Below, piece after piece: positions 2,968 to 16,136 of a stretch of DNA of 62,968 nucleotides. The translations under genes were made by a program, and so were the position numbers. The notes under the pieces were generated by a model. That model ran no database searches. It had not been told where the DNA came from and was given only the letters and a program-made list of their open reading frames with translations. Origin of the DNA: Mycobacteriales bacterium (GTDB lineage Bacteria > Actinomycetota > Actinomycetes > JADGOV01); the NCBI GenBank assembly GCA_038232055.1, contig JBBSIN010000005.1, positions 1 to 62,968 on the forward strand, in the 5' to 3' direction. How positions within the stretch are numbered: the first letter of the stretch is position 1; every line of letters starts with the position of its first letter.

Positions 2968-2980
2968 GGCAGGCCGCCGC

Positions 2981-3706
2981 TCAAACCGCCACCCGGTAGC
3001 CCAGCCCGCGGACGGTCAGAACGAGCCGTGGGTCGGCCGGATCCGGTTCGATCTTCAGGCGCAGCCGTCGGATATGGACGTCGATCAGCCGGGTGTCGCC
3101 GAAGTACCCGTAGCCCCAGACGCGTTCGAGGAGCTGCTCCCGCGTCACGAGCCGACCCGGCTCAGCGGTGAGCTCGCAGAGCAGCCGGAACTCGGTCTTC
3201 GTCAGCGGAATCGGCGCCCCGGCTCGGCGTACCACTCCCTGCCGAGGCAGCACCTCCAGGTCGCCGACCCGAACCGCATCGTCGCCGCCGCTGCTCTGAC
3301 GTGCCCGCCGCAGCAGCGCCCGGATCCGGGCATCGAGCTCCTTCGCGACGAGCGGCTTGGTCATGTAGTCGTCGGCACCGGCCTCCAGGCCGGCGACGAC
3401 GTCGGCGCTGTCACCGCGGGCCGTCACGACGATGACGGGTAGGTCGCCGCGGCGTCGAATCTCCCGGCAGACCTCGAGGCCGTTGATCCCGGGAAGCATG
3501 AGGTCGAGCAGCACGACGTCGGGCGGCTGCGCCTCCAGGCGTTGCAACCCCTGCTCGCCGCTGTCGGCCACGGTCACCCGGTAGCCCTCGTCCGCCAGGG
3601 CGAGGCCGAGCACGTGCCGGATCCGCGCGTCGTCCTCCACGAGCATGACGTGGGCGCCGATCGTGGCCGTCAGGGTGTCACCTGCTCGGTTGCTGCCGCT
3701 CGACAC
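2981..3706 (-). CDS. OmpR/PhoB-family response regulator (true start between 3646 and 3706)
   Basis: LVEDD, LLDLMLPG phospho-Asp, GADDYMTKP, winged helix IDVHIRRLRLKIE...TVRGLGY. Confidence 0.95.
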   Translation of the reverse strand: MSSGSNRAGDTLTATIGAHVMLVEDDARIRHVLGLALADEGYRVTVADSGEQGLQRLEAQPPDVVLLDLMLPGINGLEVCREIRRRGDLPVIVVTARGDSADVVAGLEAGADDYMTKPLVAKELDARIRALLRRARQSSGGDDAVRVGDLEVLPRQGVVRRAGAPIPLTKTEFRLLCELTAEPGRLVTREQLLERVWGYGYFGDTRLIDVHIRRLRLKIEPDPADPRLVLTVRGLGYRVAV

Positions 3707-4113
3707 TGGTCCGCCTGCTTCCGAACCGCGGGCTGCAGCTGGTCGAGCCGGGTCAGGACGCGGCGTACGGCCGCCGCGTCGAGGTTGCGGATGGCCCGGA
3801 CCCCGTCGCTGACGACGCCCAGCGCCTGCTCGGCCCGGTCGGCCGCCGCCAGGCAGGAAGCCGGGACCGTGACCGTGCGGTCGGCACTGACGCCTGCCGA
3901 CGGCGAGGGAGACGGCGTTGTGCTGCTCGCGGCCGCCGGCCTCGCGTTCCCGGTGTCACCGGCTTTCGTGACCCCGATCACGACGGCGCCCAGCAGCACG
4001 CCCAGCAGGAACGCTACGGCCGGGATCAGCCAGAAGCGCGCGCCGCCGCTCCGCCGAGGTGTGGGCGCAGGATCCGACGAGGGGACGTCGGTACGCCGCG
4101 GTTGATCGGTCAT
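3670..4113 (-). CDS. Single-TM membrane-anchored hypothetical protein
   Basis: GAGGAG RBS, one TM helix, Ser/Pro linker, helical domain with two Cys. The stop lies at the response regulator 5' end. Confidence 0.7.
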   Translation of the reverse strand: MTDQPRRTDVPSSDPAPTPRRSGGARFWLIPAVAFLLGVLLGAVVIGVTKAGDTGNARPAAASSTTPSPSPSAGVSADRTVTVPASCLAAADRAEQALGVVSDGVRAIRNLDAAAVRRVLTRLDQLQPAVRKQADQCRAAATEQVTP

Positions 4114-4238
4114 TCCAGCTCCTCAGCTCCGGCATCTGCAAGATCGAGTACCCGTGCCGCGCGGCAGGATGCGGACGGCAACCTTGCGAATGTGCGTCAA
4201 ACGGGTGCGAGAACCCGGCCTCGGGTAGTGCCCCGATC

Positions 4239-4859
4239 ATGCGACGCAGCTTCGCGGGCGCCGACGAGCGCACCGTACGGACCCTCGACGGCGTTCTCGG
4301 CATCTGGGTGGCGCTCTGGCTGGTCATCGGCGCCTGGTCGGCGTACGAGATATGGCAGCTCTCGTCGCTGAGCCGCAGCACGATCGAGTCGGGGCACGCG
4401 TTGGACCGGGCGGGGAGCGCCTTCCAGAGCCTGGGCGGGTTGCCGATCGTCGGTGACGGGACTGCCCAGTTCGGCGGCCAGCTCCGCAGCACGGCCGCCG
4501 ACATCGTCGACAGTGCGCAGCAGGCCGGACGCAGCACTCGCCGTCTCAGCGTCCTGCTCGGCCTGTCCATCTTCCTCATCCCGGTCGCGCCGGTGGCCGG
4601 CGTATACCTGCCGCTCCGGATCTCCCGGCGGCGCGAAATCACCCAGCTCACCAGGGCAGTGCGGGCGGACCCGGACGACCGGGTGCTGGACGCCTACCTG
4701 GCCCGCCGCGCCGTGACGCACCTGCCGTACGCCGTGCTGCGCCAGGTCAGCGCCGATCCCGATCACGACCTCGACACCGGGCAACACCGCGCGCTCGCCG
4801 ACGCGGAGTTGCTGCGGCTTGGAGTCGGAGTCGGTGCCCGCCGCCATCGCGCCGGGTGA
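4239..4859 (+). CDS. Hypothetical membrane protein (2 TM), translationally coupled to MMPL
   Basis: ATG at 4239 in frame with the ORF. TM segments GVLGIWVALWLVIGAW and LSVLLGLSIFLIPV. Overlaps the GTG of the next gene. Confidence 0.7.
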   Translation: MRRSFAGADERTVRTLDGVLGIWVALWLVIGAWSAYEIWQLSSLSRSTIESGHALDRAGSAFQSLGGLPIVGDGTAQFGGQLRSTAADIVDSAQQAGRSTRRLSVLLGLSIFLIPVAPVAGVYLPLRISRRREITQLTRAVRADPDDRVLDAYLARRAVTHLPYAVLRQVSADPDHDLDTGQHRALADAELLRLGVGVGARRHRAG

Positions 4860-7144
4860 GCGCCGACCGGCGGCCTGCCGCGCTCGACCCGGCCCGACCG
4901 CGCGAGGGTCCGCTGTCCTCGGCGTACGCCGGCCTTGTCCTGCGGCTGCGGTGGATCATCGTGCTGGGCTGGCTGGGCATCGCGACGGCGGCCACCTTGG
5001 TCCTGCCCAGCATCGCCGACGAGGGTGGCGATGACCTGGGTGGGCTCATCCCACGGGACAACCCGGCGATCCGCACCGAGCTCCGGGCGCTCGACATGTT
5101 CGGCTTCCCGCTCACGGGCCGTACGATCGTCGTCCAGCACGACCCACAGGGGCTGACCCCGGTCGCTCAGGCGCGCAGCGTACTCGCCGCTGCCGCGGTC
5201 AACCAGCGGCAGCGCCGCGACGACGCCGTCGTCCTCGGCGCGCTGCCGGTGCCGAACACCCTCGGGCTTTTCCCGTCGGCCAGCGAACGCGGGACCACGG
5301 TCCTGACGTACCTGTTCATGTCGCCGCGGACCAGCTTCCTCGGCCAGCAACGGGCCGCGCAGCACTACGTCGACACCTACCTGTCGGGTAGGGACGACGC
5401 CGTCGTGGGGGTCACCGGATCGATCCCGGCCCGGGCCCAGCAGGGGCGTCTCGTGCAGGCCGCGTTGCCCACCATGGAGCTGCTGACCGTCCTCGCCGTC
5501 GTCGTGCTGGTCGGGGCCAACTTCCGCTCCCTCGTGGCGCCGCTGATCGCGGTCACCGCCGTCGCGATCTCCTTCGTGGTCACCCTGCGCATCGCTGGTC
5601 TGGTCGGCCACCTGCTGGGGGTGTCGGTCCCAGGGGAACTCGAGCCGCTGATCGTCGCGCTTCTTCTCGGCGTGGTCACGGACTACGCGATCTTCTTCCT
5701 GTCCGCCCTCCGGCGCTCGCTGGGCAACGGGGAGGAGCGGTTCGCCGCCGCACACCGGGCAACCGCGAGCTTCGCGCCGATCGTGCTCGCGGCCGGGCTG
5801 ACTGTCGCCGCCGGCACGGCCGCCCTGCTGGCCGCACAGTCCGGGTTCTTCCGCGCGTTCGGCCCCGGCATGGCGCTCGCCGTGCTGGCCGGTGTCATCG
5901 TCTCGGTGACCCTGGTGCCTGCACTGCTCGCCATCCTCGGCCGGCGCGCGCTCTGGCCCAGCTCGGCGCGGTTCTCCGCGCGGGACGAGATGCCCGGCCC
6001 GGCACCAACGTTGCTGTTCAGCCGGGTCTTCCGCGGCCGCACCATCACCCTGCTCACCAGACCGAGGCTGGCCGCGGCCGTCTTCGTTGTCTGCACGGCC
6101 GGTCTGGTGTTGGCGGGGCTGCCCCTGCGACACATCCAGCTCGGGCTGAGCTTCACGCCGTCGCTGCCGGCGTCGAACTCCGTCAGCCGGGCAGCGGTGG
6201 CCGCCGGCGCCGGGTTTGCGCCGGGCATCGTCTCACCGACCACCCTGCTGCTCGAAGGGAACGGCCTGGGCGCCCGACTCCCAGAGCTGCGACGCCTGCA
6301 GGGGCTGGTCCGTGACCAGCCCGGCGTGGCCGGCGTCTTCGGACCGGGCGAGAAGGTCACCCCGCTCGTCCTCGGCGTCGTGCTGGCCCGCAACGGTGAC
6401 GCGGCTCGAATGCTGATCGTGCTGCAGGACGAACCGCTCGGCGCCGCGGCCATCGACCGGTTCGCCGCCCTCCGAGCAGCCATGCCGTCGCTGCTCGCCC
6501 GCAGTGGCCTGCGCGGCGTGCGGGCCGACTTCGCCGGTGACACCGCTCTCGCTGCGGGCATTATCACCGAAACGCGCGCCGACCTCGGCCGCATCGCGCT
6601 CGCGGCGCTCGTGGTCAACCTCCTGCTGCTCGTGATCTTCCTGCGGGCCCTCGTCGCGCCCCTCTACCTGCTCGCTAGCAGCGTGCTCGCGCTGACCGGT
6701 GCCCTCGGCTTGACCACGTGGCTCTTCCAGGACGTCCTTGGGCACGACGGCCTGACGTTCTACGTGCCGTTCGCCGCCGCGGTCCTGCTCGTGGCGCTGG
6801 GCTCGGACTACAACATCTTCGGCGTGGGGCATGTGTGGGAGGAGGCACGCCACCGACCGATGCGAGAGGCGATCGCGGTCGCCGTCCCGGAGTCCACCCG
6901 AGCCATCACCGCCGCGGCCATCACGCTGGCGGTGAGCTTCGCGCTGCTCGCGGTCGTCCCGCTTCGACCATTCCGCGAACTCGCCTTCGCGATGGCTGCC
7001 GGAATCCTGCTCGACGCCATCGTCGTACGGTCGTTCCTCGTCCCTGCCATGCTGACCCTCGTCGGTCCGGCGAGTGGATGGCCCAGCCGGCGGCTCCACC
7101 TCAAGGCCGCGCAGGTAAGACATCCGTCATCCGCCGATGGCTAG
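4856..7144 (+). CDS. MMPL family (RND) transporter
   Basis: 762 aa with two repeats of TM + periplasmic domain + 5 TM. Conserved VTDYAIF and GSDYNIF motifs. Confidence 0.93.
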   Translation: MSADRRPAALDPARPREGPLSSAYAGLVLRLRWIIVLGWLGIATAATLVLPSIADEGGDDLGGLIPRDNPAIRTELRALDMFGFPLTGRTIVVQHDPQGLTPVAQARSVLAAAAVNQRQRRDDAVVLGALPVPNTLGLFPSASERGTTVLTYLFMSPRTSFLGQQRAAQHYVDTYLSGRDDAVVGVTGSIPARAQQGRLVQAALPTMELLTVLAVVVLVGANFRSLVAPLIAVTAVAISFVVTLRIAGLVGHLLGVSVPGELEPLIVALLLGVVTDYAIFFLSALRRSLGNGEERFAAAHRATASFAPIVLAAGLTVAAGTAALLAAQSGFFRAFGPGMALAVLAGVIVSVTLVPALLAILGRRALWPSSARFSARDEMPGPAPTLLFSRVFRGRTITLLTRPRLAAAVFVVCTAGLVLAGLPLRHIQLGLSFTPSLPASNSVSRAAVAAGAGFAPGIVSPTTLLLEGNGLGARLPELRRLQGLVRDQPGVAGVFGPGEKVTPLVLGVVLARNGDAARMLIVLQDEPLGAAAIDRFAALRAAMPSLLARSGLRGVRADFAGDTALAAGIITETRADLGRIALAALVVNLLLLVIFLRALVAPLYLLASSVLALTGALGLTTWLFQDVLGHDGLTFYVPFAAAVLLVALGSDYNIFGVGHVWEEARHRPMREAIAVAVPESTRAITAAAITLAVSFALLAVVPLRPFRELAFAMAAGILLDAIVVRSFLVPAMLTLVGPASGWPSRRLHLKAAQVRHPSSADG

Positions 7145-7261
7145 CCGTCTGGCTGCCCGCGGTGCAGGGTGCGAGTAGCAGCCGGGTTTAGCGTCGAGAC
7201 AACCGGTGTATCGCCATACGAGGTATCCCATCAGACACGGCTCGATCCTAGGGAGTGCGTT

Positions 7262-9052
7262 ATGTCCGACACGGTGGCCGACTTCCTGCTCGGGCGGCTC
7301 CGGGACTGGGGCGTCGAGAAGGTGTTCGCCTACCCCGGCGACGGCATCAACGGCATGCTCGCCGCCTGGGGCCGAGCCGGTAACGAGCCGAAGTTCGTCC
7401 AGGCCCGGCACGAGGAGATGGCCGCGTTCGAGGCGGTCGGCTACGCGAAGTTCACCGGACGGCTCGGCGTCTGTGCCGCGACCTCGGGGCCCGGTGCGAT
7501 CCACCTGCTCAACGGCCTCTACGACGCCAAGCTCGACCACGTGCCGGTCGTCGCGATCGTGGGCCAGACGGCGCGGAGCGGGCTCGGCGGCTCCTACCAG
7601 CAGGAGGTCGACCTGCAGACGCTGTTCAAGGATGTCGCGAGCGACTACGTGCAGACCGTGATGGTGCCGGAGCAGCTGCCCAACGTCATCGACAGGGCGA
7701 TTCGCATCGCGTACACACAGCGCAGCGTCACCTGCGTGATCATTCCGTCGGACGTGCAGGAGCTCGAGTACTCGGCACCGACACACGCCTTCAAGATGGT
7801 GCCGTCGAGCCTGGGGATGCCCAGAATCGAGGTGCACGCGCCCGAAGCGGACATCCGCCGGGCGGCCGACGTGCTCAACGCGGGCAGCAAAGTCGCCATG
7901 CTCATCGGGCACGGGGCCCGGCAGGCCCGCGAGGAGGTCATCCAGGTCGCCGAGGCACTCGGCGCCGGGGTGGCAAAGGCGTTGCTGGGTAAGGACGTCC
8001 TTCCGGACGACCTGCCCTACGTGACCGGGTCGATCGGGCTGCTCGGCACCCGCCCGTCGTACGAGATGATGATGGACTGCGACACGGTCCTGACGATCGG
8101 CTCGAGCTTCCCGTACACCCAGTTCATGCCGCCGTTCGACCAGGCCCGAGGCATCCAGATCGACATCGACCCGAAGATGATCGGGATTCGCTACCCCTAC
8201 GAGGTCAACCTCGTCGGCGACGCGCAGGCAACGCTCAAGGCGCTGATCCCCATGCTGCAGCGCAAGGACGACCGGTCGTGGCGCACCGACATCGAGTCGA
8301 AGGTGGCCCGCTGGTGGGAGGTCATGGAGCGACGGGCGCATACGAGCGCAGACCCGATCAACCCACAGCAGGTATTCGCGGAGTTGTCGCCGCAGTTGCC
8401 GGACAACGTGATGCTTACCAGTGACTCCGGCTCGGCCGCGAACTGGTACGCGCGGCACATCAAGATGCGGGGCGCCATGCGGAGTTCGCTCTCCGGAAAC
8501 CTCGCCACGATGGGACCGGGAGTGCCCTACGCGATCGGCGCGAAGTTCGGCCATCCGGACCGTCCGGCCGTGGCGCTGGTCGGCGACGGCGCGATGCAGA
8601 TGAACGGCATCAACGAGCTCATCACCATCAAGAAGTACTGGCAGGAGTGGAGCGACCCACGCCTCGTCGTCGGGGTCCTGCACAACGATGACCTCAACCA
8701 GGTGACGTGGGAGATGCGGGCCATGAGTGGCGCGCCGGAGTTCCTGCCGTCCCAGCACCTGCCGGACTTCCCGTACGCCGGCTACGCCGAGAGCCTCGGG
8801 CTGCTCGGCATCCGCGTCGATCGTCCGGAGCAGGTAGGCCCGGCATGGGAGCGGGCCCTTCGGGCCGACCGGCCGGCGGTCGTGGAGTTCATCACCGACG
8901 CCTCTGTGCCGCCAATTCCGCCACACGCCACCCTCGACCAGATCGAGAAGGCCACCGAAGCCGTGGTGCGCGGGGACGCGGACTCGTGGGACCTGATCAA
9001 GGAGGGCGTCAAGACGAAGGTGCAGGAGTTCCTTCCCGGGACGAAGGAGTGA
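7262..9052 (+). CDS. Thiamine pyrophosphate-requiring enzyme (pyruvate oxidase/dehydrogenase-like)
   Basis: YPGDGING, RHEEMAAF, TSGPGAIHLLNGLYDAK; TPP motif GDGAMQM...HNDDLN. Confidence 0.93.
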   Translation: MSDTVADFLLGRLRDWGVEKVFAYPGDGINGMLAAWGRAGNEPKFVQARHEEMAAFEAVGYAKFTGRLGVCAATSGPGAIHLLNGLYDAKLDHVPVVAIVGQTARSGLGGSYQQEVDLQTLFKDVASDYVQTVMVPEQLPNVIDRAIRIAYTQRSVTCVIIPSDVQELEYSAPTHAFKMVPSSLGMPRIEVHAPEADIRRAADVLNAGSKVAMLIGHGARQAREEVIQVAEALGAGVAKALLGKDVLPDDLPYVTGSIGLLGTRPSYEMMMDCDTVLTIGSSFPYTQFMPPFDQARGIQIDIDPKMIGIRYPYEVNLVGDAQATLKALIPMLQRKDDRSWRTDIESKVARWWEVMERRAHTSADPINPQQVFAELSPQLPDNVMLTSDSGSAANWYARHIKMRGAMRSSLSGNLATMGPGVPYAIGAKFGHPDRPAVALVGDGAMQMNGINELITIKKYWQEWSDPRLVVGVLHNDDLNQVTWEMRAMSGAPEFLPSQHLPDFPYAGYAESLGLLGIRVDRPEQVGPAWERALRADRPAVVEFITDASVPPIPPHATLDQIEKATEAVVRGDADSWDLIKEGVKTKVQEFLPGTKE

Positions 9053-9492
9053 GCGGCCCGCTCTACGGCATCGACTGGATGGTCCGCAACGTCGAGACCG
9101 GTCGCTTCGAGCGGTCGCTGTCGGTGCTCAGCGCGGTGGGCGCAGCGGTGACCGCGATGGAGATCTACCTCGAGCACGATCGGGCGAGCTTCGGCAACCG
9201 GATGATGTGGCTCCCGGTCGCGCTAGGCCCGGTCGGTTTCGCGACGGGGATCGCCGGCTTCTTCTCGCGGCGGGCAGCGAAGACGGCGCTGCCTTTGTCG
9301 TCGGCGCTCATCCTGGCCAATGGTGTGCAGGGCACCTACCTGCACGTCCGTGGGATCGGACAACGACCGGGCGGCTGGCGACTCGCGCGGTACAACCTCG
9401 AGATGGGTCCCCCGCTGTTCGCGCCGCTGCTGATGTCCGTGGTCGGTGGCATGGGGGTCCTCGCCGCCATCCTGCGGCGCGAGGGCGACTGA
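9049..9492 (+). CDS. 4-TM hypothetical membrane protein with two His in or near helices
   Basis: GTG overlaps the upstream TGA. LEHDRASF...GTYLHVRG...GPPLFAP. Confidence 0.75.
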   Translation: MSGPLYGIDWMVRNVETGRFERSLSVLSAVGAAVTAMEIYLEHDRASFGNRMMWLPVALGPVGFATGIAGFFSRRAAKTALPLSSALILANGVQGTYLHVRGIGQRPGGWRLARYNLEMGPPLFAPLLMSVVGGMGVLAAILRREGD

Positions 9493-9494
9493 CG

Positions 9495-10223
9495 GTGGTG
9501 TTCCACAAGCGCGGCCTCGAGAGCCAGGGCGACACGCCAGGGGGAAAGCAGGAGCGCTTCCCCGGGTACGACGTGCTGGGCGAGGTGAGGACGTGGGACG
9601 CGGTCACCGCGGGCGTCGTCCTGGGTCGCCTCGGCATGCCGGCAGCCCTGCGCTACTTCACGGTAGGCGAGCAGGCGGCCGGGACGGCGCTGTTCGACCA
9701 GCTGCTCGACCAGCGGGCGGCGCCGCGCGTACCCGTCCTCGAGCTCATCGACGCCCGGCTGGCCGAGGACCAGACCGACGGCTGGCGCTACCAGGACATG
9801 CCGCCGGACGGCGAGGGGTTCCGGCGCAGCTTCGCCGGCCTCGACGACGACGCGCGCGGCGCGTATGGCCGCCGCTTCAGCGAGCTGGAGTGGGACGCCC
9901 AGGCCGATGTCGTCCAGCGGGTCCACGACGTGGGGGCACGCGACTGGCACGGTATGAACGCGACGCACATCTGGTCGCTCTGGACGCGCTACGCCTGCTC
10001 GGCGTTCTACAGCCACCCCTGGGCGTGGAACGAGATCGGGTTCGGCGGGCCGGCGTATCCCCGCGGATACAAGAACCTCGGGCTGGACTCCCGCGAGCCG
10101 TACGAGGTGGCGGACCGGACGAACCGTAGCCCCACCGGATGGGGCGACCGGGTCGAGGCGGCGCGTCGCCAGCACGCCGGCGCGGCCCGCTCCGCCGCCG
10201 AGCGGAAAGAGCCCGGCGCGTGA
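9495..10223 (+). CDS. Gluconate 2-dehydrogenase subunit 3 family protein
   Basis: C-terminal FYSHPWAWNEIGFGGPAYPRGY signature. Precedes a GMC flavoprotein. Confidence 0.8.
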   Translation: MVFHKRGLESQGDTPGGKQERFPGYDVLGEVRTWDAVTAGVVLGRLGMPAALRYFTVGEQAAGTALFDQLLDQRAAPRVPVLELIDARLAEDQTDGWRYQDMPPDGEGFRRSFAGLDDDARGAYGRRFSELEWDAQADVVQRVHDVGARDWHGMNATHIWSLWTRYACSAFYSHPWAWNEIGFGGPAYPRGYKNLGLDSREPYEVADRTNRSPTGWGDRVEAARRQHAGAARSAAERKEPGA

Positions 10224-11905
10224 GGCTGCCCACGAGGAAGATGTTCGACGACGTACGGCAGCGCAACGAGTCGGCGTGGCTGCTGCCGAACGACGGCAGC
10301 CGAACCAACTACGAGCTGCGCCGCAACATGCAGCGCTTCGACGACAGCGACGAGGTGGACCTGGTCATCGTCGGCTGCGGTGCCGGCGGTGGCGTCCTGC
10401 TGCAACGGCTCGCCCGCGCCGGCTGGAAGGTCGTCGCCCTCGACGCCGGGCCGTTCTGGGACCCTGATACCGACTGGGTGAGCGACGAGTTGGGCTCGCA
10501 CCACCTCTACTGGACCGAGCCGCGCGTCATCTCCGGCAGCGATCCGGTCCCGCTCGGGTCGAACAACTCCGGCCGAGGCGTCGGTGGCTCGATGGTCCAC
10601 TACGCCGGTTACACCCCTCGTTTCCATCCGAGCGACTTCTCGATGCACAGCGACGACGGAGTGGGCGCCGACTGGCCGATCTCCTACCCGACCCTTCGGC
10701 CGTACTACGAGATGATCGAGTCGGAGCTACCGGTCGCCGGCGAGCACTGGCCCTGGGGCGACCCGCACGACTATCCGATGTCGCCGCATCCGATCGGCGG
10801 TGGCGGCATGGTGTTCCAGCGTGGCTGCGTCGCCGCCGGGATCGACGTCCGGGTCGGCCCGGTCGCGATCACGAACGGGCGCTTCGGTAACCGCCCACAC
10901 TGCATCTACCGAGGTTTCTGCGTCCAGGGCTGCAAGGTCAACGCCAAGGCGTCCCCGTTGATCACGCACGTCCCGGACGCCCTGGCGCACGGTGCCGAGG
11001 TGCGCGCGGACGCGATGGTGACGCGAGTGGTCGTCGACGACGACAGCGGCCTGGCGACCGGCGTCCGCTACCTGCGGGGCGGCGTCGAGCGGTTCCAGCG
11101 GGCGCGGATGGTCGCGGTGGCCGGCTACTCGATCGAGACCCCCCGGCTGCTGCTCAACTCGGCGACCAGGAGATGGCCGGACGGCCTCTGCAACGACGCC
11201 GATCTCGTCGGCAGGTACCTCATGGTGCAAGGCGCACCGCAGACGGCAGGCCGGTTCGCCGAGGAGGTCCGCGCGTACAAGGCGCCGCCCCCCGAGGTCT
11301 CCACCGAGGCGTTCTACGAGACCGATCCCGGCAAGCCGTACAAGCGCGGCTTCTCGATCCAATGCGTATCGCCGCTGCCGATCACCTACGCCGAGCACGT
11401 CACTGCCCAGGGGCACTGGGGACCGGTGCTGCGGGAGTACATGCGCGACTACGTGCACTGGGCGACGTTCGGCGCGCTGTGCGAGTTCCTGCCGCTGCCC
11501 GGCAACCGGGTGACCCTCGCCGACGAGACCGACCGATACGGGTTGCCGGTGGCGAACTTCTCCTACAGCCAGTGCGACAACGACCGGGCGCTCATGGCGG
11601 CGGCGCAGGCGGTGATGGAGCGCATTTTCGAGGCGGCCGGCGCGGAGGAAACCATCACGATCAAGAGGTTCGCGCACCTCGTCGGCGGCTGCCGCATGGG
11701 CACCGACGCCACCTCGGGCGTCGTGGACGAGTCGTTGCGGAGCTTCGCGATTCCCAACCTCAACATCACCGACGGGTCGGTCCTGCCGACGCAGGGCTCG
11801 GCCAATCCGGCGCTGACCATCATGTCGCTCGCGGCCCGGGCCGCTGACCTGCTGCGCGACGGCGCCCGCACCGGCTCGCCCGCCGCGACGGCCCGCAGCC
11901 GATGA
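10220..11905 (+). CDS. GMC family oxidoreductase (FAD)
   Basis: VIVGCGAGGG dinucleotide motif, GRGVGGS, CIYRGFCVQGC cysteine cluster, AHLVGGCRMG, ANPALTIM. Confidence 0.93.
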   Translation: MRLPTRKMFDDVRQRNESAWLLPNDGSRTNYELRRNMQRFDDSDEVDLVIVGCGAGGGVLLQRLARAGWKVVALDAGPFWDPDTDWVSDELGSHHLYWTEPRVISGSDPVPLGSNNSGRGVGGSMVHYAGYTPRFHPSDFSMHSDDGVGADWPISYPTLRPYYEMIESELPVAGEHWPWGDPHDYPMSPHPIGGGGMVFQRGCVAAGIDVRVGPVAITNGRFGNRPHCIYRGFCVQGCKVNAKASPLITHVPDALAHGAEVRADAMVTRVVVDDDSGLATGVRYLRGGVERFQRARMVAVAGYSIETPRLLLNSATRRWPDGLCNDADLVGRYLMVQGAPQTAGRFAEEVRAYKAPPPEVSTEAFYETDPGKPYKRGFSIQCVSPLPITYAEHVTAQGHWGPVLREYMRDYVHWATFGALCEFLPLPGNRVTLADETDRYGLPVANFSYSQCDNDRALMAAAQAVMERIFEAAGAEETITIKRFAHLVGGCRMGTDATSGVVDESLRSFAIPNLNITDGSVLPTQGSANPALTIMSLAARAADLLRDGARTGSPAATARSR

Positions 11906-13014
11906 CGACGGCAGCGGACGCCGCGATCGAGTCGCTCGACGTTTCGGCCTACACCGTGCCGACCGACGCGCCGGAAGCCGACGGTACGGCGACGTGGGAC
12001 TCGACCACGCTCGTCGTCGTCGAGCCGGTCGCGGCCGGGGTGCGGGGGCTCGGCTGGTCCTACACCGGCGCGGCAGCGGCGGACGTCGTCAGCGGCGCGC
12101 TCGCGCAGGAGGTGCTCGGGCGGCCAGCGCTCGACGTGCCTGGTGCCGCGATGGCGATGGCCAGGGCGGTGCGCAACCTCGGCCGGTCCGGTCTCGTCGC
12201 GACGGCGATCTCCGCGGTCGACATCGCGCTGTGGGACCTCAAGGCGAAGCTGCTCGAGCTGCCGCTGTGCCGGCTGCTCGGCCAGGCGCACGAGCAGGTC
12301 GCGGTCTACGGCAGTGGCGGCTTCACGACCTACGACGGGAAGCAGACCCGGGATCAGCTCTCGCACTGGGTGCACGAGCAGGGCATCCCGCGCGTCAAGA
12401 TCAAAATCGGCGAGGCGCGAGGGTCGGCCGAGTACCGCGACGTCTCGCGGATCGCCCTCGCCAGGGAGGTCATCGGCAGTGCCGCGGAGCTCTACGTCGA
12501 CGCGAACGGCGGCTACTCGCGCGGACAGGCAGTCCGGATGGCGAGCCGGTTCGCCCCGTACGACGTCAGCTGGTTCGAGGAGCCGGTGTCGAGCGACGAC
12601 CTGCGGGGCCTGGCGTCGATCCGCGGCGAGGTACTACCCGACGTAGCGGCGGGGGAGTACGGCTACGACCTCGGCTACTTCGAGCGGATGTGCGGTGCGC
12701 AGGCGGTCGACTGCCTGCAGGTCGACCTCACCCGCTGTGGCGGCGTGACCGAATGGCTGCGGGCGGCCGCGGTGGCCGCCGGTCACCACCTGCAGGTGTC
12801 AGCGCACTGTGCACCGAACCTGCACGCGCACGTCGCGGCGGCGGTGCCGAACATCCGGCACCTGGAGTGGTTCCACGACCACGTCCGGATCGAGTCGATG
12901 CTCTTCACCGGTGCGCTCGACCCGGCCGGTGGCACCGTCACGCCGAACCAGGGTCGGTCGGGCCTCGGGCTGGCGCTGCGCCCGGTGGCAGCCGAGCAGT
13001 ACCGGGTGACCTGA
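11902..13014 (+). CDS. Enolase superfamily, mandelate racemase/muconate lactonizing subgroup enzyme
   Basis: AVDIALWDLKAK, KIK motif, metal ligands in DAN, WFEEP and AGE. Confidence 0.92.
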   Translation: MTTAADAAIESLDVSAYTVPTDAPEADGTATWDSTTLVVVEPVAAGVRGLGWSYTGAAAADVVSGALAQEVLGRPALDVPGAAMAMARAVRNLGRSGLVATAISAVDIALWDLKAKLLELPLCRLLGQAHEQVAVYGSGGFTTYDGKQTRDQLSHWVHEQGIPRVKIKIGEARGSAEYRDVSRIALAREVIGSAAELYVDANGGYSRGQAVRMASRFAPYDVSWFEEPVSSDDLRGLASIRGEVLPDVAAGEYGYDLGYFERMCGAQAVDCLQVDLTRCGGVTEWLRAAAVAAGHHLQVSAHCAPNLHAHVAAAVPNIRHLEWFHDHVRIESMLFTGALDPAGGTVTPNQGRSGLGLALRPVAAEQYRVT

Positions 13015-13019
13015 GCGTC

Positions 13020-13042
13020 GCGGGGCCGGTCAGCGGCCCCGC
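13020..13042. terminator. GC-rich hairpin between convergent genes
   Basis: GCGGGGCCG-gtcag-CGGCCCCGC, overlapping the VKOR stop. No U-tract. Confidence 0.5.
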
Positions 13043-13608
13043 AGCGATCGCCAGGCGGCGCGCGCCTCGGGCAGCACCAACGGCACCGCCGCCACGTTGA
13101 GCAGCGCCGCCACGGTGCAATAGGAGCAGAACCTGCGGTGCTTGCTCGCCTGCTCGGCGAACAGGTACAGGCCGCCCACCGCGTCGGCGGCCACCTTTGC
13201 GGCGAACAGCAGCGGCAGCACCGGTCGGGTGCGCCAGCGCTCGCCGTCGCCCATCCCCGCCAACGCCAGTGTCGCGCCGGCGCTGAGAATGCCGATGGAG
13301 CTGTCCGGCGTACGCAGCAGCTCGTAGGCCTCACCGCTCGCGTCGACCACGTCCGCCCCTAGGAAAGACAGCGGCGGCTCCGGCAGGTGGCGTACGACGC
13401 CGAACTGGTAGAGCCCCACGGCGCCCAGCGCAGCGGCGGCGCCCGTGGTCAACCCGGCGATCCGCCGGCGGTTGTCGAGGAAGGTTCCGCTGCCGCGGCG
13501 CAACGCGTCACTGACCTGTTCGGCGGCGGGAGAGGACGGGCGGCCAACGCCGCGATGCGTCGGTCGCGCGGCCGCAGCGGGCGGCCCCGCCGGTCGTCGT
13601 CGAGTCAT
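13030..13608 (-). CDS. Vitamin K epoxide reductase (VKOR) family protein, CxxC only
   Basis: TM helices and C-terminal FCSYC. ADVVDAS sits where CxxVxxS is expected. Start uncertain. Confidence 0.8.
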   Translation of the reverse strand: MTRRRPAGPPAAAARPTHRGVGRPSSPAAEQVSDALRRGSGTFLDNRRRIAGLTTGAAAALGAVGLYQFGVVRHLPEPPLSFLGADVVDASGEAYELLRTPDSSIGILSAGATLALAGMGDGERWRTRPVLPLLFAAKVAADAVGGLYLFAEQASKHRRFCSYCTVAALLNVAAVPLVLPEARAAWRSLRGR

Positions 13609-13728
13609 CCGCTTCGCCCTTCCATGGACCGGGTCGGCTCGTGCCGACCTTCGGCGTACCCGCCCGACGACCGCGTCGTCGCCCTGACACACTCGCACCT
13701 GATCGGGTCGGGACGGAAGGATGCAGGC

Positions 13729-15012
13729 ATGGTGGACTACCAGCTCGAGTACCCGAATGGCACGCTGCCGCTGCCCGCGAGTACGGCGACGGAGGGCCCA
13801 TCGGGGCTCGACATCAAGCAGCTGCTGAGCGAAACCGGGTCCGTCACGCTCGACACCGGCTTCATGAACACCGCGTCGTGCACCTCTGCGATCACCTACA
13901 TCGACGGCGACGCCGGCATCCTGCGCTACCGCGGGTACCCGATCGACGACCTCGCCGAGCACTCCTCCTTCCTCGAGGTGTCCTACCTGCTGATCTACGG
14001 CGAGCTGCCGACGTCGAGCGAGTTGGAAAGTTTCACCGCCCATGTCAGCTCGCACACCATGCTGCACGAGGACCTCAAAGAGTTCTTCGCCGGCTTCCCC
14101 CGTGACGCGCACCCCATGGCAGTGCTCTCCTCCGCGGTTAGCGCCCTGTCGACCTTTTATCAGGACGGCCTGAACCCCTTCGACATGGAGCAGGTGGAGA
14201 CGTCCACGGCGCGGCTGCTGGCCAAGCTCCCGACGATCGCGGCGTACGCCTACAAGAAGTCGATCGGCCAGCCGTTCCTCTATCCCGACAACGCGCTGAA
14301 CTACGTCGAGAACTTCCTCCGCATGACGTTCGGAGTTCCGGCCCAGCCGTACGAGGTCGACCCGGTCGTTGCAGGAGTGCTCGACCTGCTCTTCATCCTG
14401 CATGCGGACCACGAGCAGAACTGCTCGACGTCGACTGTCCGCCTCGTCGGCTCGAGCCAGGCCAACCTCTTCGCCTCCGTCTCGGCCGGCGTCAACGCCC
14501 TGTTCGGCCCGCTGCACGGGGGTGCCAACCAGGCCGTGCTCGAGATGCTCGACCGCATCTCGGCCGACGGCGGCGACGTCGACGCGTTCGTTCGGCGGGT
14601 GAAGGACAAGGAGCCCGGCGTGAAGCTGATGGGCTTCGGCCACCGCGTCTACAAGAACTACGACCCGCGCGCGGCGATCGTGAAGAAGGCGACGCGCGAC
14701 GTACTCGATCGCCTCGGTAGGCCAGACCCGCTGCTCGACATCGCGGTCAAGCTCGAGGAGGTCGCCCTCGCCGACGATTACTTCGTCGAGCGCAAGCTCT
14801 ACCCCAACGTGGACTTCTACACCGGCGTGATCTACAAGGCCATGGGCTTCCCCACCAGGATGTTCACCGTGCTGTTTGCCCTCGGCCGGTTGCCCGGTTG
14901 GATCGCCCAGTGGCGCGAGATGATCGCCGATCCGGCCACCAAGATCGGCCGGCCGCGCCAGGTGTATGTCGGTGCGGGCGAGCGGCGCCACGTCCCTATC
15001 GAGAAGCGCTGA
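13729..15012 (+). CDS. gltA: Citrate synthase (type II)
   Basis: DGDAGILRYRGY, HADHEQNCST, GPLHGGAN, GFGHRVYKNYDPR, YPNVDFYTG. Confidence 0.97.
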   Translation: MVDYQLEYPNGTLPLPASTATEGPSGLDIKQLLSETGSVTLDTGFMNTASCTSAITYIDGDAGILRYRGYPIDDLAEHSSFLEVSYLLIYGELPTSSELESFTAHVSSHTMLHEDLKEFFAGFPRDAHPMAVLSSAVSALSTFYQDGLNPFDMEQVETSTARLLAKLPTIAAYAYKKSIGQPFLYPDNALNYVENFLRMTFGVPAQPYEVDPVVAGVLDLLFILHADHEQNCSTSTVRLVGSSQANLFASVSAGVNALFGPLHGGANQAVLEMLDRISADGGDVDAFVRRVKDKEPGVKLMGFGHRVYKNYDPRAAIVKKATRDVLDRLGRPDPLLDIAVKLEEVALADDYFVERKLYPNVDFYTGVIYKAMGFPTRMFTVLFALGRLPGWIAQWREMIADPATKIGRPRQVYVGAGERRHVPIEKR

Positions 15013-15098
15013 CCCGACGCTGGCGCGCCCGTACGCGGGCTTCGCTGCACGCCGCCTAGCATGGAAGGCCGGCGGGAGATGTCCAGGCGGGAGCGGTT

Positions 15099-16136
15099 GT
15101 GAGCGACAGCGCGGCAGTACCGACCAAGCAGCGCGATCCCTGGACGCGCCCCTTCACGGGCTTCTACCGCCCGACCGAAGGCGGGGTCTCGACCCTCGGC
15201 CCCGTCACCCGCTTTCTCTACGCCGCACGCAGCGTCATCCTGGTTATCTCGGCGCAGGCGGCAATCATCGCGGCGTTGCTCGCCATCACCGATCGTTCCT
15301 TCGACCCAGTGGCGTTCGTCCTGGTCTTTATCGGGCTCGTCGTCGCGCACGCGATCAGCAATCTCAGCAATGACTATTTCGGGCACCGGCGCGGCCACGA
15401 CACGGAAGACTCACCCCGGCTGCGCTACACCGTGCACCCCATCGCCAACGGTGGCCTCGACGCCCGGACCCTGCTCACCGGGCTCGGCATCCTGTGCGCG
15501 GTCGGTGTTGCGATCGCGGTCTACTTCGCCCTCACCGCCGGCCCATGGGCGCTGTTCTTCATCGGCGCGGGCGTCGTGCTGCTGTTCCTGTACGACGCCG
15601 CGCCCATCACGCTGAAGAGCATCGGTCTCGGTGAGATCGCGTCGTTCCTCGTCTGGGGCCCGCTCATGGTCGCCGGCGGCTACTACGTGATGAGCGACGA
15701 CCGGCTCTCCGGCTCAGTCTTTCTCGCGTCGGTGCCCTACGGGCTCGGCGTCATGTCCATCCTCGTCGGCAAACACATCGACCAGCGGGAGTTCGACTCG
15801 GCGCACGGCCAGCGGACGCTACCGGTTCTGCTCGGCGAGGCGACGGCCCGGCAGCTCGATCGCATCGCGGTCGTGGGCATGTACGTCGTCGTCGCCGTCG
15901 GGATCCTGCTCGGCTGGCTCACGCCGTTCGCGCTGCTGGTGCTGCTCGCCGCCCCGCGGGGGCTGCGCGCCGTTTCCGTGATGGCGCGGCCCAGTCCGGC
16001 CCAACCGCCGGCCGGCTACGTCGGCTGGCCGCTGTGGTACCACCGGGTCTGCCTGGTGCACAACCGGCTCTTCGGCTGGACCTACATCGGCGGGCTGGCA
16101 CTCGGTGCGATCTTCCCGGGCCTCCGCCTGCGGTAG
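15099..16136 (+). CDS. UbiA/MenA-family prenyltransferase
   Basis: Multi-TM. NLSNDYFGHRRGHD and KHIDQREFD...GQRTL align to the MenA acidic motifs, with substitutions. Confidence 0.8.
   Translation: MSDSAAVPTKQRDPWTRPFTGFYRPTEGGVSTLGPVTRFLYAARSVILVISAQAAIIAALLAITDRSFDPVAFVLVFIGLVVAHAISNLSNDYFGHRRGHDTEDSPRLRYTVHPIANGGLDARTLLTGLGILCAVGVAIAVYFALTAGPWALFFIGAGVVLLFLYDAAPITLKSIGLGEIASFLVWGPLMVAGGYYVMSDDRLSGSVFLASVPYGLGVMSILVGKHIDQREFDSAHGQRTLPVLLGEATARQLDRIAVVGMYVVVAVGILLGWLTPFALLVLLAAPRGLRAVSVMARPSPAQPPAGYVGWPLWYHRVCLVHNRLFGWTYIGGLALGAIFPGLRLR

What the first reader, a model, noticed from the sequence alone, without database searches (positions are those of the whole stretch)
7262..13014. Translationally coupled 5-gene operon that may encode an uncharacterised cytoplasmic-facing sugar/sugar-acid oxidation pathway
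Seen: the TPP enzyme, 4-TM di-His protein, gluconate-2-DH subunit-3-like protein, GMC flavoprotein and MR-subgroup enolase are joined by GTGA/ATGA overlaps or a 2-bp gap. The GMC has C-x5-C-x3-C, and neither dehydrogenase subunit shows a twin-arginine signal. Established: FAD sugar dehydrogenases (gluconate 2-DH, Burkholderia FAD-GDH) use flavoprotein + small subunit + multiheme cytochrome c, with a Cys-ligated 3Fe-4S relay. MR-subgroup enzymes are often acid-sugar dehydratases. Inference: no cytochrome c is present, so the 147-aa 4-TM protein may be a novel heme-b/quinone anchor. The proposed route is oxidation, then dehydration, then TPP-dependent decarboxylation.
Basis: partly seen in the sequence, partly recalled or inferred. 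Interest (0 to 1): 0.65.

Follow-up and report, generated by a model that had tools for sequence, protein, structure and literature searches.

The report
Membrane-anchored cytoplasmic sugar-type dehydrogenase operon
Five tightly coupled genes form a module conserved in soil Actinomycetota and Acidobacteriota, in which an unannotated 4-helix membrane protein replaces the usual cytochrome c partner of an FAD/iron-sulfur dehydrogenase; it is probably a new way of feeding electrons to the respiratory quinone pool.

Summary
Five + strand genes (7262-13014) are joined by GTGA, a 2-bp gap, GTGA (or a 17-bp gap) and ATGA. They encode a PoxB-like TPP enzyme, a 147-aa 4-TM protein, a Gluconate_2-dh3 small subunit, a GMC flavoprotein and an MR-subgroup enolase.

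The GMC protein aligns with Burkholderia FAD-glucose dehydrogenase alpha. It keeps the three 3Fe-4S cysteines (C228/C234/C238). Neither dehydrogenase subunit has a Tat signal, and no CxxCH motif occurs within 22 kb.

- The order 4TM-sub3-GMC is kept in 76 of 77 named genome loci.
- It is also kept in distant relatives where the 4TM protein is only 31-36% identical.
- Acidobacteriota carry the same five-gene set with a tandem 8-TM version.

The 4-TM family has thousands of members, all "hypothetical". It has no Pfam or NCBIfam model and no structural relative. Its conserved residues are suggestive of haem b but unproven.

One correction: the TPP enzyme is a pyruvate-oxidase/PoxB-type oxidative decarboxylase, not a plain decarboxylase. 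Substrate and step order remain open.

A SigB/SigF-type promoter motif and stress-linked neighbours (GH15 trehalase-like gene, SigB/F sigma factor) suggest stress or starvation expression.

Verdict: new variant of a known kind.

The parts
7186..7211 (+). SigB/SigF-type promoter-like motif, GTTT-N16-GTGTAT (GGTTTAGCG...GGTGTAT), 51 bp upstream of the TPP start
   Evidence: This is the only match to GTTT-N15-18-G[GT]GTA[TC] on either strand of the 63-kb window. In orthologous loci, G(G/A)TT(T/A)-N15-18-GGGTA with at most 1 mismatch lies upstream of the first cluster gene in 33 of 67 loci. The reverse-complement control gives 4 of 67. No sigma-70-type promoter or intrinsic terminator was found in 6900-13500. 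Function is inferred, not shown.
7262..9052 (+). PoxB/pyruvate-oxidase-like TPP enzyme, probably a flavoenzyme (596 aa)
   Evidence: Pfam TPP_enzyme_N/M/C. NCBIfam PRK08273 equivalog at 1025 bits against a cut-off of 724. The best solved structure is E. coli PoxB 3EY9, E 5.5e-90 over residues 1-563. It has RHEE at residue 49 and GDG...NDD at 441-479.
9049..9492 (+). 4-TM membrane protein of an unannotated family (147 aa); proposed membrane anchor and electron acceptor of the dehydrogenase
   Evidence: No Pfam or NCBIfam hit. At least 3843 homologue clusters, all 'hypothetical'. The AF2 model is a 4-helix bundle with mean pLDDT 80.5. No PDB fold match reaches E < 0.1. Conserved residues: E38, H43, P56, G95, H99, R101, G102, P107-G109, N116, G120-P122. 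It is adjacent to sub3 + GMC in 76 of 77 loci.
9495..10223 (+). Gluconate_2-dh3-like small subunit without a Tat signal (242 aa)
   Evidence: PF13618 at 63.5 bits against a cut-off of 23.4. No RR motif or hydrophobic N-terminal region. It carries the conserved C-terminal motif HPWAWNEIGFGGPAYPRGY. No PDB relative was found, either with the single sequence or with a profile.
10220..11905 (+). GMC flavoprotein catalytic subunit with a 3Fe-4S cysteine triad (561 aa from GTG 10220; alternative start ATG 10241)
   Evidence: GMC_oxred_N/C. The best PDB match is 6A2U_B, B. cepacia FAD-GDH alpha, E 3.7e-51, followed by the fructose dehydrogenase large subunit 7W2J. C228/C234/C238 align with Cys212/218/222. 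H127 aligns with the covalent-FAD His105. H486 and N529 align with the catalytic His476/Asn519.
11902..13014 (+). Enolase-superfamily enzyme of the mandelate racemase subgroup (370 aa)
   Evidence: MR_MLE_N/C. The best PDB match is 3CYJ (Rubrobacter xylanophilus, function unknown), E 1.1e-98. Next is L-talarate/galactarate dehydratase 2PP0, E 4.9e-41. Motifs: K166-x-K168, D200, E226, E252, D275, H302. The NCBIfam TalGalacDh model scores 194 bits, below its cut-off of 500.

Best explanation
The region is one operon that encodes a conserved five-gene module.

Core complex (inferred): three proteins form a cytoplasm-facing, membrane-anchored dehydrogenase.
- The GMC flavoprotein carries FAD and a 3Fe-4S cluster and oxidises a hydroxyl group of the substrate.
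- The Gluconate_2-dh3-like small subunit has lost its Tat export signal and serves as a structural partner.
- The 4-TM protein takes the place of the tri-haem cytochrome c of the classical periplasmic enzymes. It probably acts as a dimer, because a tandem 8-TM fusion exists in Acidobacteriota.

Electron path (inferred): FAD, then 3Fe-4S, then the membrane subunit, then menaquinone. The membrane subunit may hold one haem b between H43 and H99, or only a quinone site.

The other two genes: the PoxB-like TPP enzyme is probably a second, peripheral quinone-reducing enzyme that oxidatively decarboxylates the 2-oxo acid made in the pathway. The MR-subgroup enolase supplies or converts the acid intermediate as a dehydratase or an epimerase.

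Overall function (inferred): a short oxidation route, independent of NAD(P), for a carbohydrate-derived hydroxy or keto acid. It is probably expressed from a SigB/SigF-type stress promoter.

Shown here:
- gene structure;
- family memberships;
- the Cys triad and catalytic residues;
- absence of Tat signals and of CxxCH;
- tight co-occurrence across two phyla.

Inferred only:
- physical complex formation;
- haem or quinone binding;
- the direction of electron flow;
- the substrate.
For: - Junctions and families.
- The GMC protein is homologous to FAD-GDH alpha, with the 3Fe-4S cysteines and the catalytic His/Asn aligned.
- No Tat motif and no CxxCH.
- Co-occurrence in named genomes: 4TM-sub3-GMC in that order in 76 of 77 loci. 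A PoxB-like TPP gene lies in the same locus in 68, an enolase in 49, and both in 47, although gene order is shuffled.
- All 11 clear 4TM hits in a 301-genome sample of the phylum, the window's own genome included, lie in genomes with a PF13618 gene. In every one of these loci with enough flanking DNA to judge, sub3 lies next to the 4TM gene.
- The trio is kept where the 4TM protein is only 31-36% identical.
- Acidobacteriota (Occallatibacter riparius, Acidipila rosea) have MR_MLE, an 8-TM tandem 4TM, sub3 and GMC in one row, preceded by a TPP gene in Acidipila rosea. Again there is no Tat signal, and the PHCIYRGFCxQGCK motif is the same.
- Residue pattern in the 4TM protein:
  - H43 and H99 lie at the same end of TM1 and TM3.
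  - Each His is followed by x-R-(G/A).
  - Gly sits at His-4 and His-7 on TM3 (G95 98%, G92 86%).
  - Gly sits at His-7 on TM1 (73% in the family; Ala in the window).
  This is the kind of face against which a flat cofactor packs.
- The TPP enzyme is closest to the quinone-reducing PoxB.
- The promoter motif is enriched upstream of the cluster: 33 of 67 loci against 4 of 67 in the control.
- Stress- and glucan-linked neighbours elsewhere: a SigB/F/G sigma factor, a GH15 trehalase-like gene and an SDR.
Against: - Nothing shows a physical complex, a haem or quinone reduction.
- The 4-TM protein has no detectable relative among known haem-b or quinone anchors.
- Its topology is unresolved. K+R counts are 8.2 on the N-terminus/loop 2/C-terminus side and 5.7 on the His/loop 3 side. 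That leans towards the conserved His residues lying outside the cell, which would be awkward for electron transfer from a cytoplasmic 3Fe-4S cluster. Only the short-N-terminus subfamily (L018) fits 'His side in'.
- Coordinates of the models were not available, so the His-His geometry could not be measured.
- Cytoplasmic sub3-GMC pairs without any 4TM protein also exist, so the dehydrogenase does not strictly need this subunit.
- The window has no sugar transporter or sugar regulator.
- The enolase is missing from about a third of the loci.
Confidence: 0.55

Rival explanations
1. Same complex, different chemistry: a mandelate-pathway-like route. The MR-subgroup enolase racemises or epimerises a 2-hydroxy acid. 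The GMC complex oxidises the C2 hydroxyl to a 2-oxo acid, as gluconate 2-dehydrogenase does. The PoxB-like enzyme then oxidatively decarboxylates that 2-oxo acid. This replaces the reader's order of aldose oxidation, then dehydration, then decarboxylation.
For: - The three enzyme classes match the Pseudomonas putida mandelate pathway: MR racemase, a membrane flavin dehydrogenase and a TPP enzyme (established knowledge).
- The family that names PF13618 oxidises a 2-hydroxy acid to a 2-oxo acid.
- The PoxB-like enzyme needs a 2-oxo acid.
- The closest characterised enolase relative, TalrD/GalrD, also epimerises (established knowledge).
Against: - The closest solved GMC relatives act on C1 of glucose or C5 of fructose.
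- Most characterised MR-subgroup members are acid-sugar dehydratases.
- The neighbours are glycoside hydrolases rather than aromatic or hydroxy-acid genes.
- Nothing computed here separates the two orders.
Confidence: 0.3
2. The 4-TM protein is a small secondary transporter that imports the pathway substrate. It is co-operonic with the dehydrogenase but is not a redox subunit.
For: - It has a membrane-embedded, 95% conserved Glu (E38) plus conserved His, Asn and Arg, as in small proton-coupled carriers.
- The window operon has no other transporter.
- The dimer / tandem-fusion architecture is also typical of small transporters.
Against: - Its position directly upstream of sub3, in fixed order and often with start/stop overlap, holds over large distances while the TPP and enolase genes move about. 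That fits a stoichiometric subunit better.
- MFS transporters occur next to the module in some loci.
- The most conserved part is a surface loop and helix ends, not a central pore.
- No fold match to any transporter family reaches E < 0.1.
Confidence: 0.12
3. The 4-TM protein is only a passive membrane tether or scaffold without a cofactor. It holds GMC-sub3, and perhaps the PoxB-like enzyme, at the membrane, where the 3Fe-4S cluster reduces menaquinone directly.
For: - Co-occurrence is as strong for this reading as for the main one.
- No haem-binding family signature or fold relative was found.
- Cofactor-less quinone-interacting anchors are known, for example NrfD-like subunits (PMC8076601, listed).
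Against: Near-invariant His, Glu, Arg and Gly at helix ends are more than a tether needs. This reading differs from the main one only in the cofactor question.
Confidence: 0.2

Closest known systems
Membrane-bound FAD-dependent dehydrogenase complexes of Proteobacteria (Burkholderia cepacia FAD-glucose dehydrogenase, 6A2U/8HDD; Gluconobacter fructose dehydrogenase, 7W2J; gluconate 2-dehydrogenase)
   Same: - GMC catalytic subunit with the 3Fe-4S Cys triad, the covalent-FAD His and the catalytic His/Asn.
- A PF13618 small subunit encoded directly upstream of the catalytic subunit.
- A third, membrane-associated subunit in the same operon.
   Different: - No Tat signal on the small subunit, so the enzyme faces the cytoplasm rather than the periplasm.
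- No tri-haem cytochrome c. An unrelated 4-TM (or tandem 8-TM) integral membrane protein stands in its place.
- The small subunit is too diverged for sequence or profile searches to reach any solved structure.
- The complex is linked to a PoxB-like enzyme and an enolase-superfamily enzyme.
E. coli PoxB / Corynebacterium Pqo (pyruvate:quinone oxidoreductase) and Lactobacillus pyruvate oxidase
   Same: The window's TPP enzyme aligns end to end with PoxB (E 5.5e-90). It has all three TPP-enzyme domains.
   Different: It belongs to a separate NCBIfam equivalog, PRK08273, of untested function. Its substrate is unknown. It has a 33-residue C-terminal tail beyond the region aligned with PoxB, and the role of that tail in membrane binding was not tested.
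Mandelate pathway of Pseudomonas putida (MdlA racemase, MdlB membrane flavin dehydrogenase, MdlC TPP decarboxylase)
   Same: The same three enzyme classes in one operon: an MR-subgroup enolase, a membrane-bound flavin dehydrogenase, and a TPP enzyme acting on a 2-oxo acid.
   Different: - The dehydrogenase here is a GMC/3Fe-4S multi-subunit enzyme, not an FMN enzyme.
- The TPP enzyme is PoxB-like (oxidative), not a benzoylformate-decarboxylase type.
- There is no homology-based link to mandelate. This is an analogy, recalled from established knowledge.
Succinate:quinone oxidoreductase and other cytoplasm-facing dehydrogenases with small haem-b membrane anchors (SdhCD)
   Same: The proposed logic is the same: a cytoplasmic flavoprotein, an Fe-S relay ending in a 3Fe-4S cluster, and a small helical membrane anchor with His ligands that reduces quinone.
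   Different: No sequence or fold similarity between the 4-TM protein and SdhC/SdhD or any other solved anchor. Neither haem nor a quinone site is demonstrated.

Membership tests
FAD-dependent dehydrogenase complex (FADGDH / fructose DH / gluconate 2-DH type) | GMC-family catalytic subunit homologous to the alpha subunit | tested here: met
   6A2U_B at E 3.7e-51 over residues 42-546; 7W2J_A at E 8.2e-42. GMC_oxred_N/C.
FAD-dependent dehydrogenase complex (FADGDH / fructose DH / gluconate 2-DH type) | Cys triad that ligates a 3Fe-4S cluster (Cys212/218/222 in BcGDH) | tested here: met
   C228/C234/C238 align column for column. The ligand identities come from PMC6719666. The cluster itself is not demonstrated.
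FAD-dependent dehydrogenase complex (FADGDH / fructose DH / gluconate 2-DH type) | Small subunit of family PF13618 encoded next to the catalytic subunit | tested here: met
   63.5 bits against a cut-off of 23.4; the gene ends 4 bp into the GMC gene.
FAD-dependent dehydrogenase complex (FADGDH / fructose DH / gluconate 2-DH type) | Twin-arginine signal on the small subunit (hitch-hiker export to the periplasm) | tested here: not met
   No RR motif or hydrophobic region in the window's sub3 or in the Acidipila orthologue. Other Actinomycetota sub3 proteins do carry SRRSFL signals.
FAD-dependent dehydrogenase complex (FADGDH / fructose DH / gluconate 2-DH type) | Multi-haem cytochrome c electron-transfer subunit | tested here: not met
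   No CxxCH in any of six frames in window positions 1-22000. No gene with a cytochrome c Pfam domain was called in the three gene-annotated related loci examined.
PoxB / pyruvate oxidase clade of TPP enzymes | Three TPP-enzyme domains and a score above a curated family cut-off | tested here: met
   PRK08273 at 1025 bits against a cut-off of 724. The next families are pyruvate oxidase (470 bits) and PoxB (385 bits), both below their cut-offs. PoxB 3EY9 is the best PDB hit.
PoxB / pyruvate oxidase clade of TPP enzymes | FAD binding, quinone reduction and a lipid-activated C-terminal helix | not testable with these tools
   The middle domain aligns with PoxB, and a 33-residue C-terminal tail exists. 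Neither cofactor nor membrane binding can be shown by sequence alone.
Enolase superfamily, mandelate racemase subgroup | KxK at strand 2, three carboxylate metal ligands, and an Asp-His dyad at strands 6 and 7 | tested here: met
   K166/K168, D200, E226, E252, D275 and H302 were located by motif and by alignment to 3CYJ.
L-talarate/galactarate dehydratase (NCBIfam NF047820) | Score above the equivalog cut-off | tested here: not met
   194 bits against a cut-off of 500. The closest structure, 3CYJ, has no assigned function.
Known haem-b / quinone membrane anchors (SdhCD, NarI, FdnI, cytochrome b561, DsbB and others) | Sequence-family or fold similarity | tested here: not met
   No Pfam or NCBIfam hit for the window protein or for 16 diverse members. 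The best Foldseek E-values against the PDB are 0.17 (4-TM) and 0.20 (8-TM), and the matches are generic helical bundles.

The most novel reading that the evidence does not exclude
The 4-TM / tandem 8-TM family is a new class of respiratory membrane subunit. It would bind haem b and/or menaquinone and dock cytoplasm-facing FAD/3Fe-4S GMC dehydrogenases. Together with a PoxB-like enzyme it would form an NAD-independent oxidation route wired directly to quinone. The route would act on glucose or trehalose-derived carbon. Soil Actinomycetota and Acidobacteriota would switch it on under general stress or starvation through a SigB/SigF-type promoter.
Probability: 0.3. Interest if true: 0.8.

Novelty: new variant of a known kind. 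Interest (0 to 1): 0.6.

Why it matters
FAD/3Fe-4S GMC dehydrogenase complexes are known only as periplasmic, cytochrome-c-linked enzymes of Proteobacteria. They are also the workhorses of direct-electron-transfer biosensors.

A cytoplasm-facing version with an unrelated integral membrane partner would add a new primary dehydrogenase to the respiratory chains of two dominant soil phyla:
- It is present in about 4% of sampled Actinomycetota species and in a subset of Acidobacteriaceae.
- Metagenomes hold thousands of sequence clusters.

It would also give a function to a large "hypothetical protein" family that has no Pfam model.

The apparent stress-sigma control and the trehalase-like neighbours make it a candidate for energy conservation during persistence. 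This can be tested in culturable hosts: Nocardia kruczakiae NBRC 101016, Rugosimonospora acidiphila JCM 18304, Acidipila rosea and Occallatibacter riparius.

Tried and rejected
- **Natural 4TM-sub3 fusions, to fix the topology.** Several long metagenome proteins looked fused. Their sequences show Arg/Pro-rich wrong-frame stretches, so they are frameshift or gene-calling artefacts.
- **Internal 2+2 TM duplication in the 4-TM protein.** hhalign of the two halves gave only 22 columns, probability 3%, E 0.015. The duplication is not supported, although both halves share an H-x-R-G motif.
- **Fold search of both AF2 models against the PDB.** No match reached E < 0.1. Model coordinates are not exposed, so the His-His distance could not be measured.
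- **Positive-inside analysis.** Ambiguous: 8.2 against 5.7 K+R, with near-equal net charge on the two sides.
- **Profile search of the small subunit against the PDB.** Nothing was found.
- **The search for related loci with the diverse alignment A1.** It failed because no stretch was conserved enough. The single protein was used instead.
- **Literature.** Six full-text searches found no description of this variant or of the 4-TM family. The Berney and Cook M. smegmatis paper did not mention the locus.
- **A clean 'Tat signal versus 4TM' dichotomy.** Rejected, because several Actinomycetota sub3-GMC pairs have neither a Tat signal nor a 4TM protein.
- **Chance adjacency of the five genes.** Rejected by conservation across two phyla despite shuffled gene order.

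Full report
**1. Observation**

The window has about 70% G+C. ORFs with coding-type GC3 and the junction sequences give five co-directional genes:

| Gene | Coordinates | Junction with the previous gene |
|---|---|---|
| TPP enzyme | 7262-9052 | ATG start, AGGGAG 6 nt upstream |
| 4-TM protein (147 aa) | 9049-9492 | GTGA overlap with the TPP stop |
| Small subunit (sub3) | 9495-10223 | 2-bp gap |
| GMC flavoprotein | 10220-11905 | GTGA overlap; ATG 10241 is a possible alternative start |
| Enolase | 11902-13014 | ATGA overlap |

The exception is the 4-TM protein, which matches nothing.

No sigma-70-type promoter or intrinsic terminator lies inside the block.

**2. The dehydrogenase**

- The closest solved relatives of the GMC protein are the Burkholderia cepacia FAD-glucose dehydrogenase alpha subunit (6A2U_B, E 3.7e-51) and the Gluconobacter fructose dehydrogenase large subunit.
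- In that alignment C228, C234 and C238 fall on Cys212, Cys218 and Cys222. The crystal-structure paper identifies these as the 3Fe-4S ligands (PMC6719666).
- H127 falls on the covalent-FAD His105. H486 and N529 fall on the catalytic His476/Asn519.
- The small subunit is a clear PF13618 member (63.5 bits). It is very diverged: neither the sequence nor a profile finds any solved structure.
- Neither subunit has a twin-arginine motif or an N-terminal hydrophobic segment. No CxxCH occurs in any frame of the first 22 kb.
- Other Actinomycetota PF13618 proteins do carry classical SRRSFL Tat signals, some with a lipobox. The absence here is therefore a real feature of this subfamily.
- The enzyme must face the cytoplasm and has no cytochrome c partner.

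**3.

The family is large. It has at least 3843 clusters at 90% identity, all named "hypothetical", and 698 representatives at 50% identity.

Genomic context:
- In a 301-genome sample of the phylum, 11 genomes have a clear homologue. All 11 also carry a PF13618 gene, and wherever the contig leaves enough flank to judge, sub3 lies next to the 4TM gene.
- In 80 named genome loci the order 4TM-sub3-GMC holds in 76 of the 77 loci with enough flanking DNA. These loci come from:
  - Mycobacteriales;
  - Streptosporangiaceae;
  - Pseudonocardiaceae;
  - Nocardia kruczakiae;
  - Rugosimonospora acidiphila;
  - Actinoplanes;
  - Nocardioidaceae;
  - Acidimicrobiia.
- A PoxB-like TPP gene is present in 68 of those loci, an enolase in 49, and both in 47. 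Their positions are shuffled: TPP before the trio, after it, or divergent with the enolase.
- The trio persists in a distant lineage where the 4TM protein is only 31-36% identical and the TPP and enolase genes are absent. That subfamily includes Candidatus Aquicultor.
- In Acidobacteriota a tandem-duplicated 8-TM version has at least 4011 clusters. It sits in the same module, MR_MLE - 8TM - sub3 - GMC, preceded by a TPP gene in Acidipila rosea, and occurs in Occallatibacter riparius and Acidipila rosea. There too the small subunit lacks a Tat signal, and the GMC Cys motif is unchanged.
- Identity between the two phyla is GMC 57-58%, enolase 50%, TPP 42%, sub3 37% and 4TM 39-46%.

The five genes are therefore a functional unit, and the 4-TM protein is a dedicated partner of the GMC-sub3 pair. 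The tandem fusion suggests that the single-unit form works as a parallel dimer.

**4. What the 4-TM protein may do**

- AF2 models are helical bundles of moderate confidence: pLDDT 80.5 for the 147-aa protein and 76.7 for the 8-TM form.
- Foldseek finds no PDB relative below E 0.1. Pfam finds nothing, even for 16 diverse members at E < 5.
- Conserved positions are E38, H43, P56, G95, H99, R101, G102, P107-G108-G109, N116, G120-P121-P122, A125-P126 and G136.

Pattern around the two His residues:
- They sit at the same end of TM1 and TM3, which are diagonal helices of a four-helix bundle.
- Each is followed by x-Arg-(Gly/Ala).
- TM3 has Gly at His-4 and His-7, on the same helical face.
- TM1 has Gly at His-7 in 73% of the family (Ala in the window).

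This is what one expects for a bis-His haem b with its propionates pointing to the surface. It is inference, not evidence. A quinone site or a metal site would fit as well.

Topology is unresolved. K+R counts lean towards the N-terminus, loop 2 and C-terminus being inside. Net charge is balanced, and the short-N-terminus subfamily leans the other way. If the His side is outside, a single-haem relay from a cytoplasmic 3Fe-4S cluster is hard to picture.

Apparent 4TM-sub3 fusions that could have settled this are frameshift artefacts.

**5. The accessory enzymes**

*TPP enzyme.* It is not a plain decarboxylase.
- It passes the PRK08273 equivalog cut-off (1025 bits).
- Its next relatives are pyruvate oxidase and PoxB.
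- It aligns end to end with E. coli PoxB (3EY9, E 5.5e-90).
- Acidobacterial loci and some actinobacterial loci carry a second type that scores between PRK08273 and pyruvate oxidase.
- The conserved link is therefore to the PoxB/pyruvate-oxidase clade, that is, to flavin-dependent oxidative decarboxylation of a 2-oxo acid, probably also coupled to quinone.

*Enolase.* It is a bona fide MR-subgroup member.
- It has KxK, three metal ligands and the Asp-His dyad.
- Its closest structure, 3CYJ from Rubrobacter xylanophilus, has no known function.
- The L-talarate/galactarate dehydratase model scores well below its cut-off.

*Pathway order.* Two orders fit the same enzymes:
- A mandelate-pathway-like order: racemase or epimerase, then 2-hydroxy-acid dehydrogenase, then 2-oxo-acid enzyme.

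Nothing computed here separates them.

**6. Context and regulation**

The window itself gives no substrate hint. Its neighbours are:
- a two-component system;
- an unknown 266-aa protein plus an MMPL protein;
- citrate synthase;
- a MenA-like prenyltransferase;
- GreA;
- a DHDPS-family gene.

Recurrent neighbours in other genomes:
- a PRK07109-type SDR with a C-terminal TM helix (26 loci, often the first gene of the operon);
- a GH15 trehalase-like enzyme (21 loci);
- an fdhA-like Zn alcohol dehydrogenase (16 loci);
- a SigB/SigF/SigG-family sigma factor (16 loci);
- a transketolase;
- a Gfo/Idh/MocA oxidoreductase;
- an MFS transporter;
- in one close relative, a glycogen-debranching-like enzyme.

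Acidipila rosea has GH2 and alpha-amylase genes nearby. This gives moderate, indirect support for a carbohydrate substrate, possibly derived from trehalose or glucan.

Upstream of the first cluster gene, a motif G(G/A)TT(T/A)-N15-18-GGGTA with at most one mismatch occurs in 33 of 67 loci. The reverse-complement control gives 4 of 67. The hexamers are conserved while the spacers vary. The window has GGTTTAGCG-N-GGTGTAT at 7184-7211, the only such match in 63 kb. This resembles the actinobacterial SigB/SigF-type consensus (my own knowledge) and suggests stress or stationary-phase expression. It remains an inference.

**7. Comparison with the known and novelty**

- The module works like the FAD-dependent dehydrogenase complexes but fails two of their defining features: Tat export and a multi-haem cytochrome c.
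- Its third subunit belongs to no described family.
- Six literature searches found no description.
- Earlier first-stage notes of this scan saw the same gene set in at least eight other genomes. One follow-up agent reached a similar reading. These are leads, not independent evidence.
- I rate it a new variant of a known kind.

**8. Limits**

- No multimer prediction was possible.
- Many of the 80 loci are phylogenetically close, so the counts overstate independence. The independent evidence is the cross-phylum and distant-lineage conservation.

Noticed in passing
window 7184-7211: A SigB/SigF-type promoter-like motif (GGTTTAGCG...GGTGTAT) lies 51 bp upstream of the operon. A related motif occurs upstream of the cluster in 33 of 67 orthologous loci, against 4 of 67 on the reverse-complement control.
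   Followed up: partly
L104:9001-9969 (Acidipila rosea, WP_243647981.1); L103:9001-9960 (Occallatibacter riparius, WP_260796168.1): Acidobacteriota carry a tandem-duplicated 8-TM form of the membrane protein inside the same module, with all four His residues kept. It gave strong hits in 3 of 201 sampled Acidobacteriota genomes.
   Followed up: yes
L136:3916-4230 (genome G065): One lineage has an orthologous sub3-GMC pair (42% identity) with no 4-TM gene. A 104-aa Cys-rich protein (CLCPSCP...CVCPSCP) lies about 100 bp upstream of sub3, where the 4-TM gene lies in other lineages. It may be an alternative third component.
   Followed up: no
L087:7858-8892; L099:3735-5546; L036:12712-13857 and 14620-15447; L138:14140-16432: Recurrent neighbours of the module in other Actinomycetota are a PRK07109-type SDR with a C-terminal TM helix (26 loci), a GH15 trehalase-like enzyme (21), an fdhA-like Zn alcohol dehydrogenase (16) and a SigB/F/G-family sigma factor (16). 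Together they look like a stress or storage-carbohydrate island.
   Followed up: partly
L108, L111, L112, L132, L135: Other Actinomycetota PF13618 small subunits have clear Tat signals (SRRSFLAVTG...), three of them with a lipobox Cys. Others have neither a Tat signal nor a 4TM partner and lie in open frames of 644-872 aa, possibly as sub3-GMC fusions.
   Followed up: partly
window 4059-4859 and 4856-7144: A 266-aa protein with no Pfam or NCBIfam family is start/stop-coupled to an MMPL-family transporter directly upstream of the operon. A divergent two-component system lies before them, at 1528-3706.
   Followed up: no
window 13387-15012: The citrate synthase ORF is 541 aa, but the Pfam domain begins at residue 158. 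Either the start is called too far upstream or there is an unusual N-terminal extension.
   Followed up: no
P0170, P0217, P0233, P0239 (metagenome proteins): Apparent 4TM-sub3 and 4TM-GMC fusion proteins in the public protein collection are wrong-frame read-throughs typical of high-GC contigs. They are not real fusions.
   Followed up: yes
L072 (Streptomyces sp. PH10-H1): This is the only locus with room for a GMC gene in which none was detected after 4TM and sub3. The cause could be gene loss or an assembly problem.
   Followed up: no
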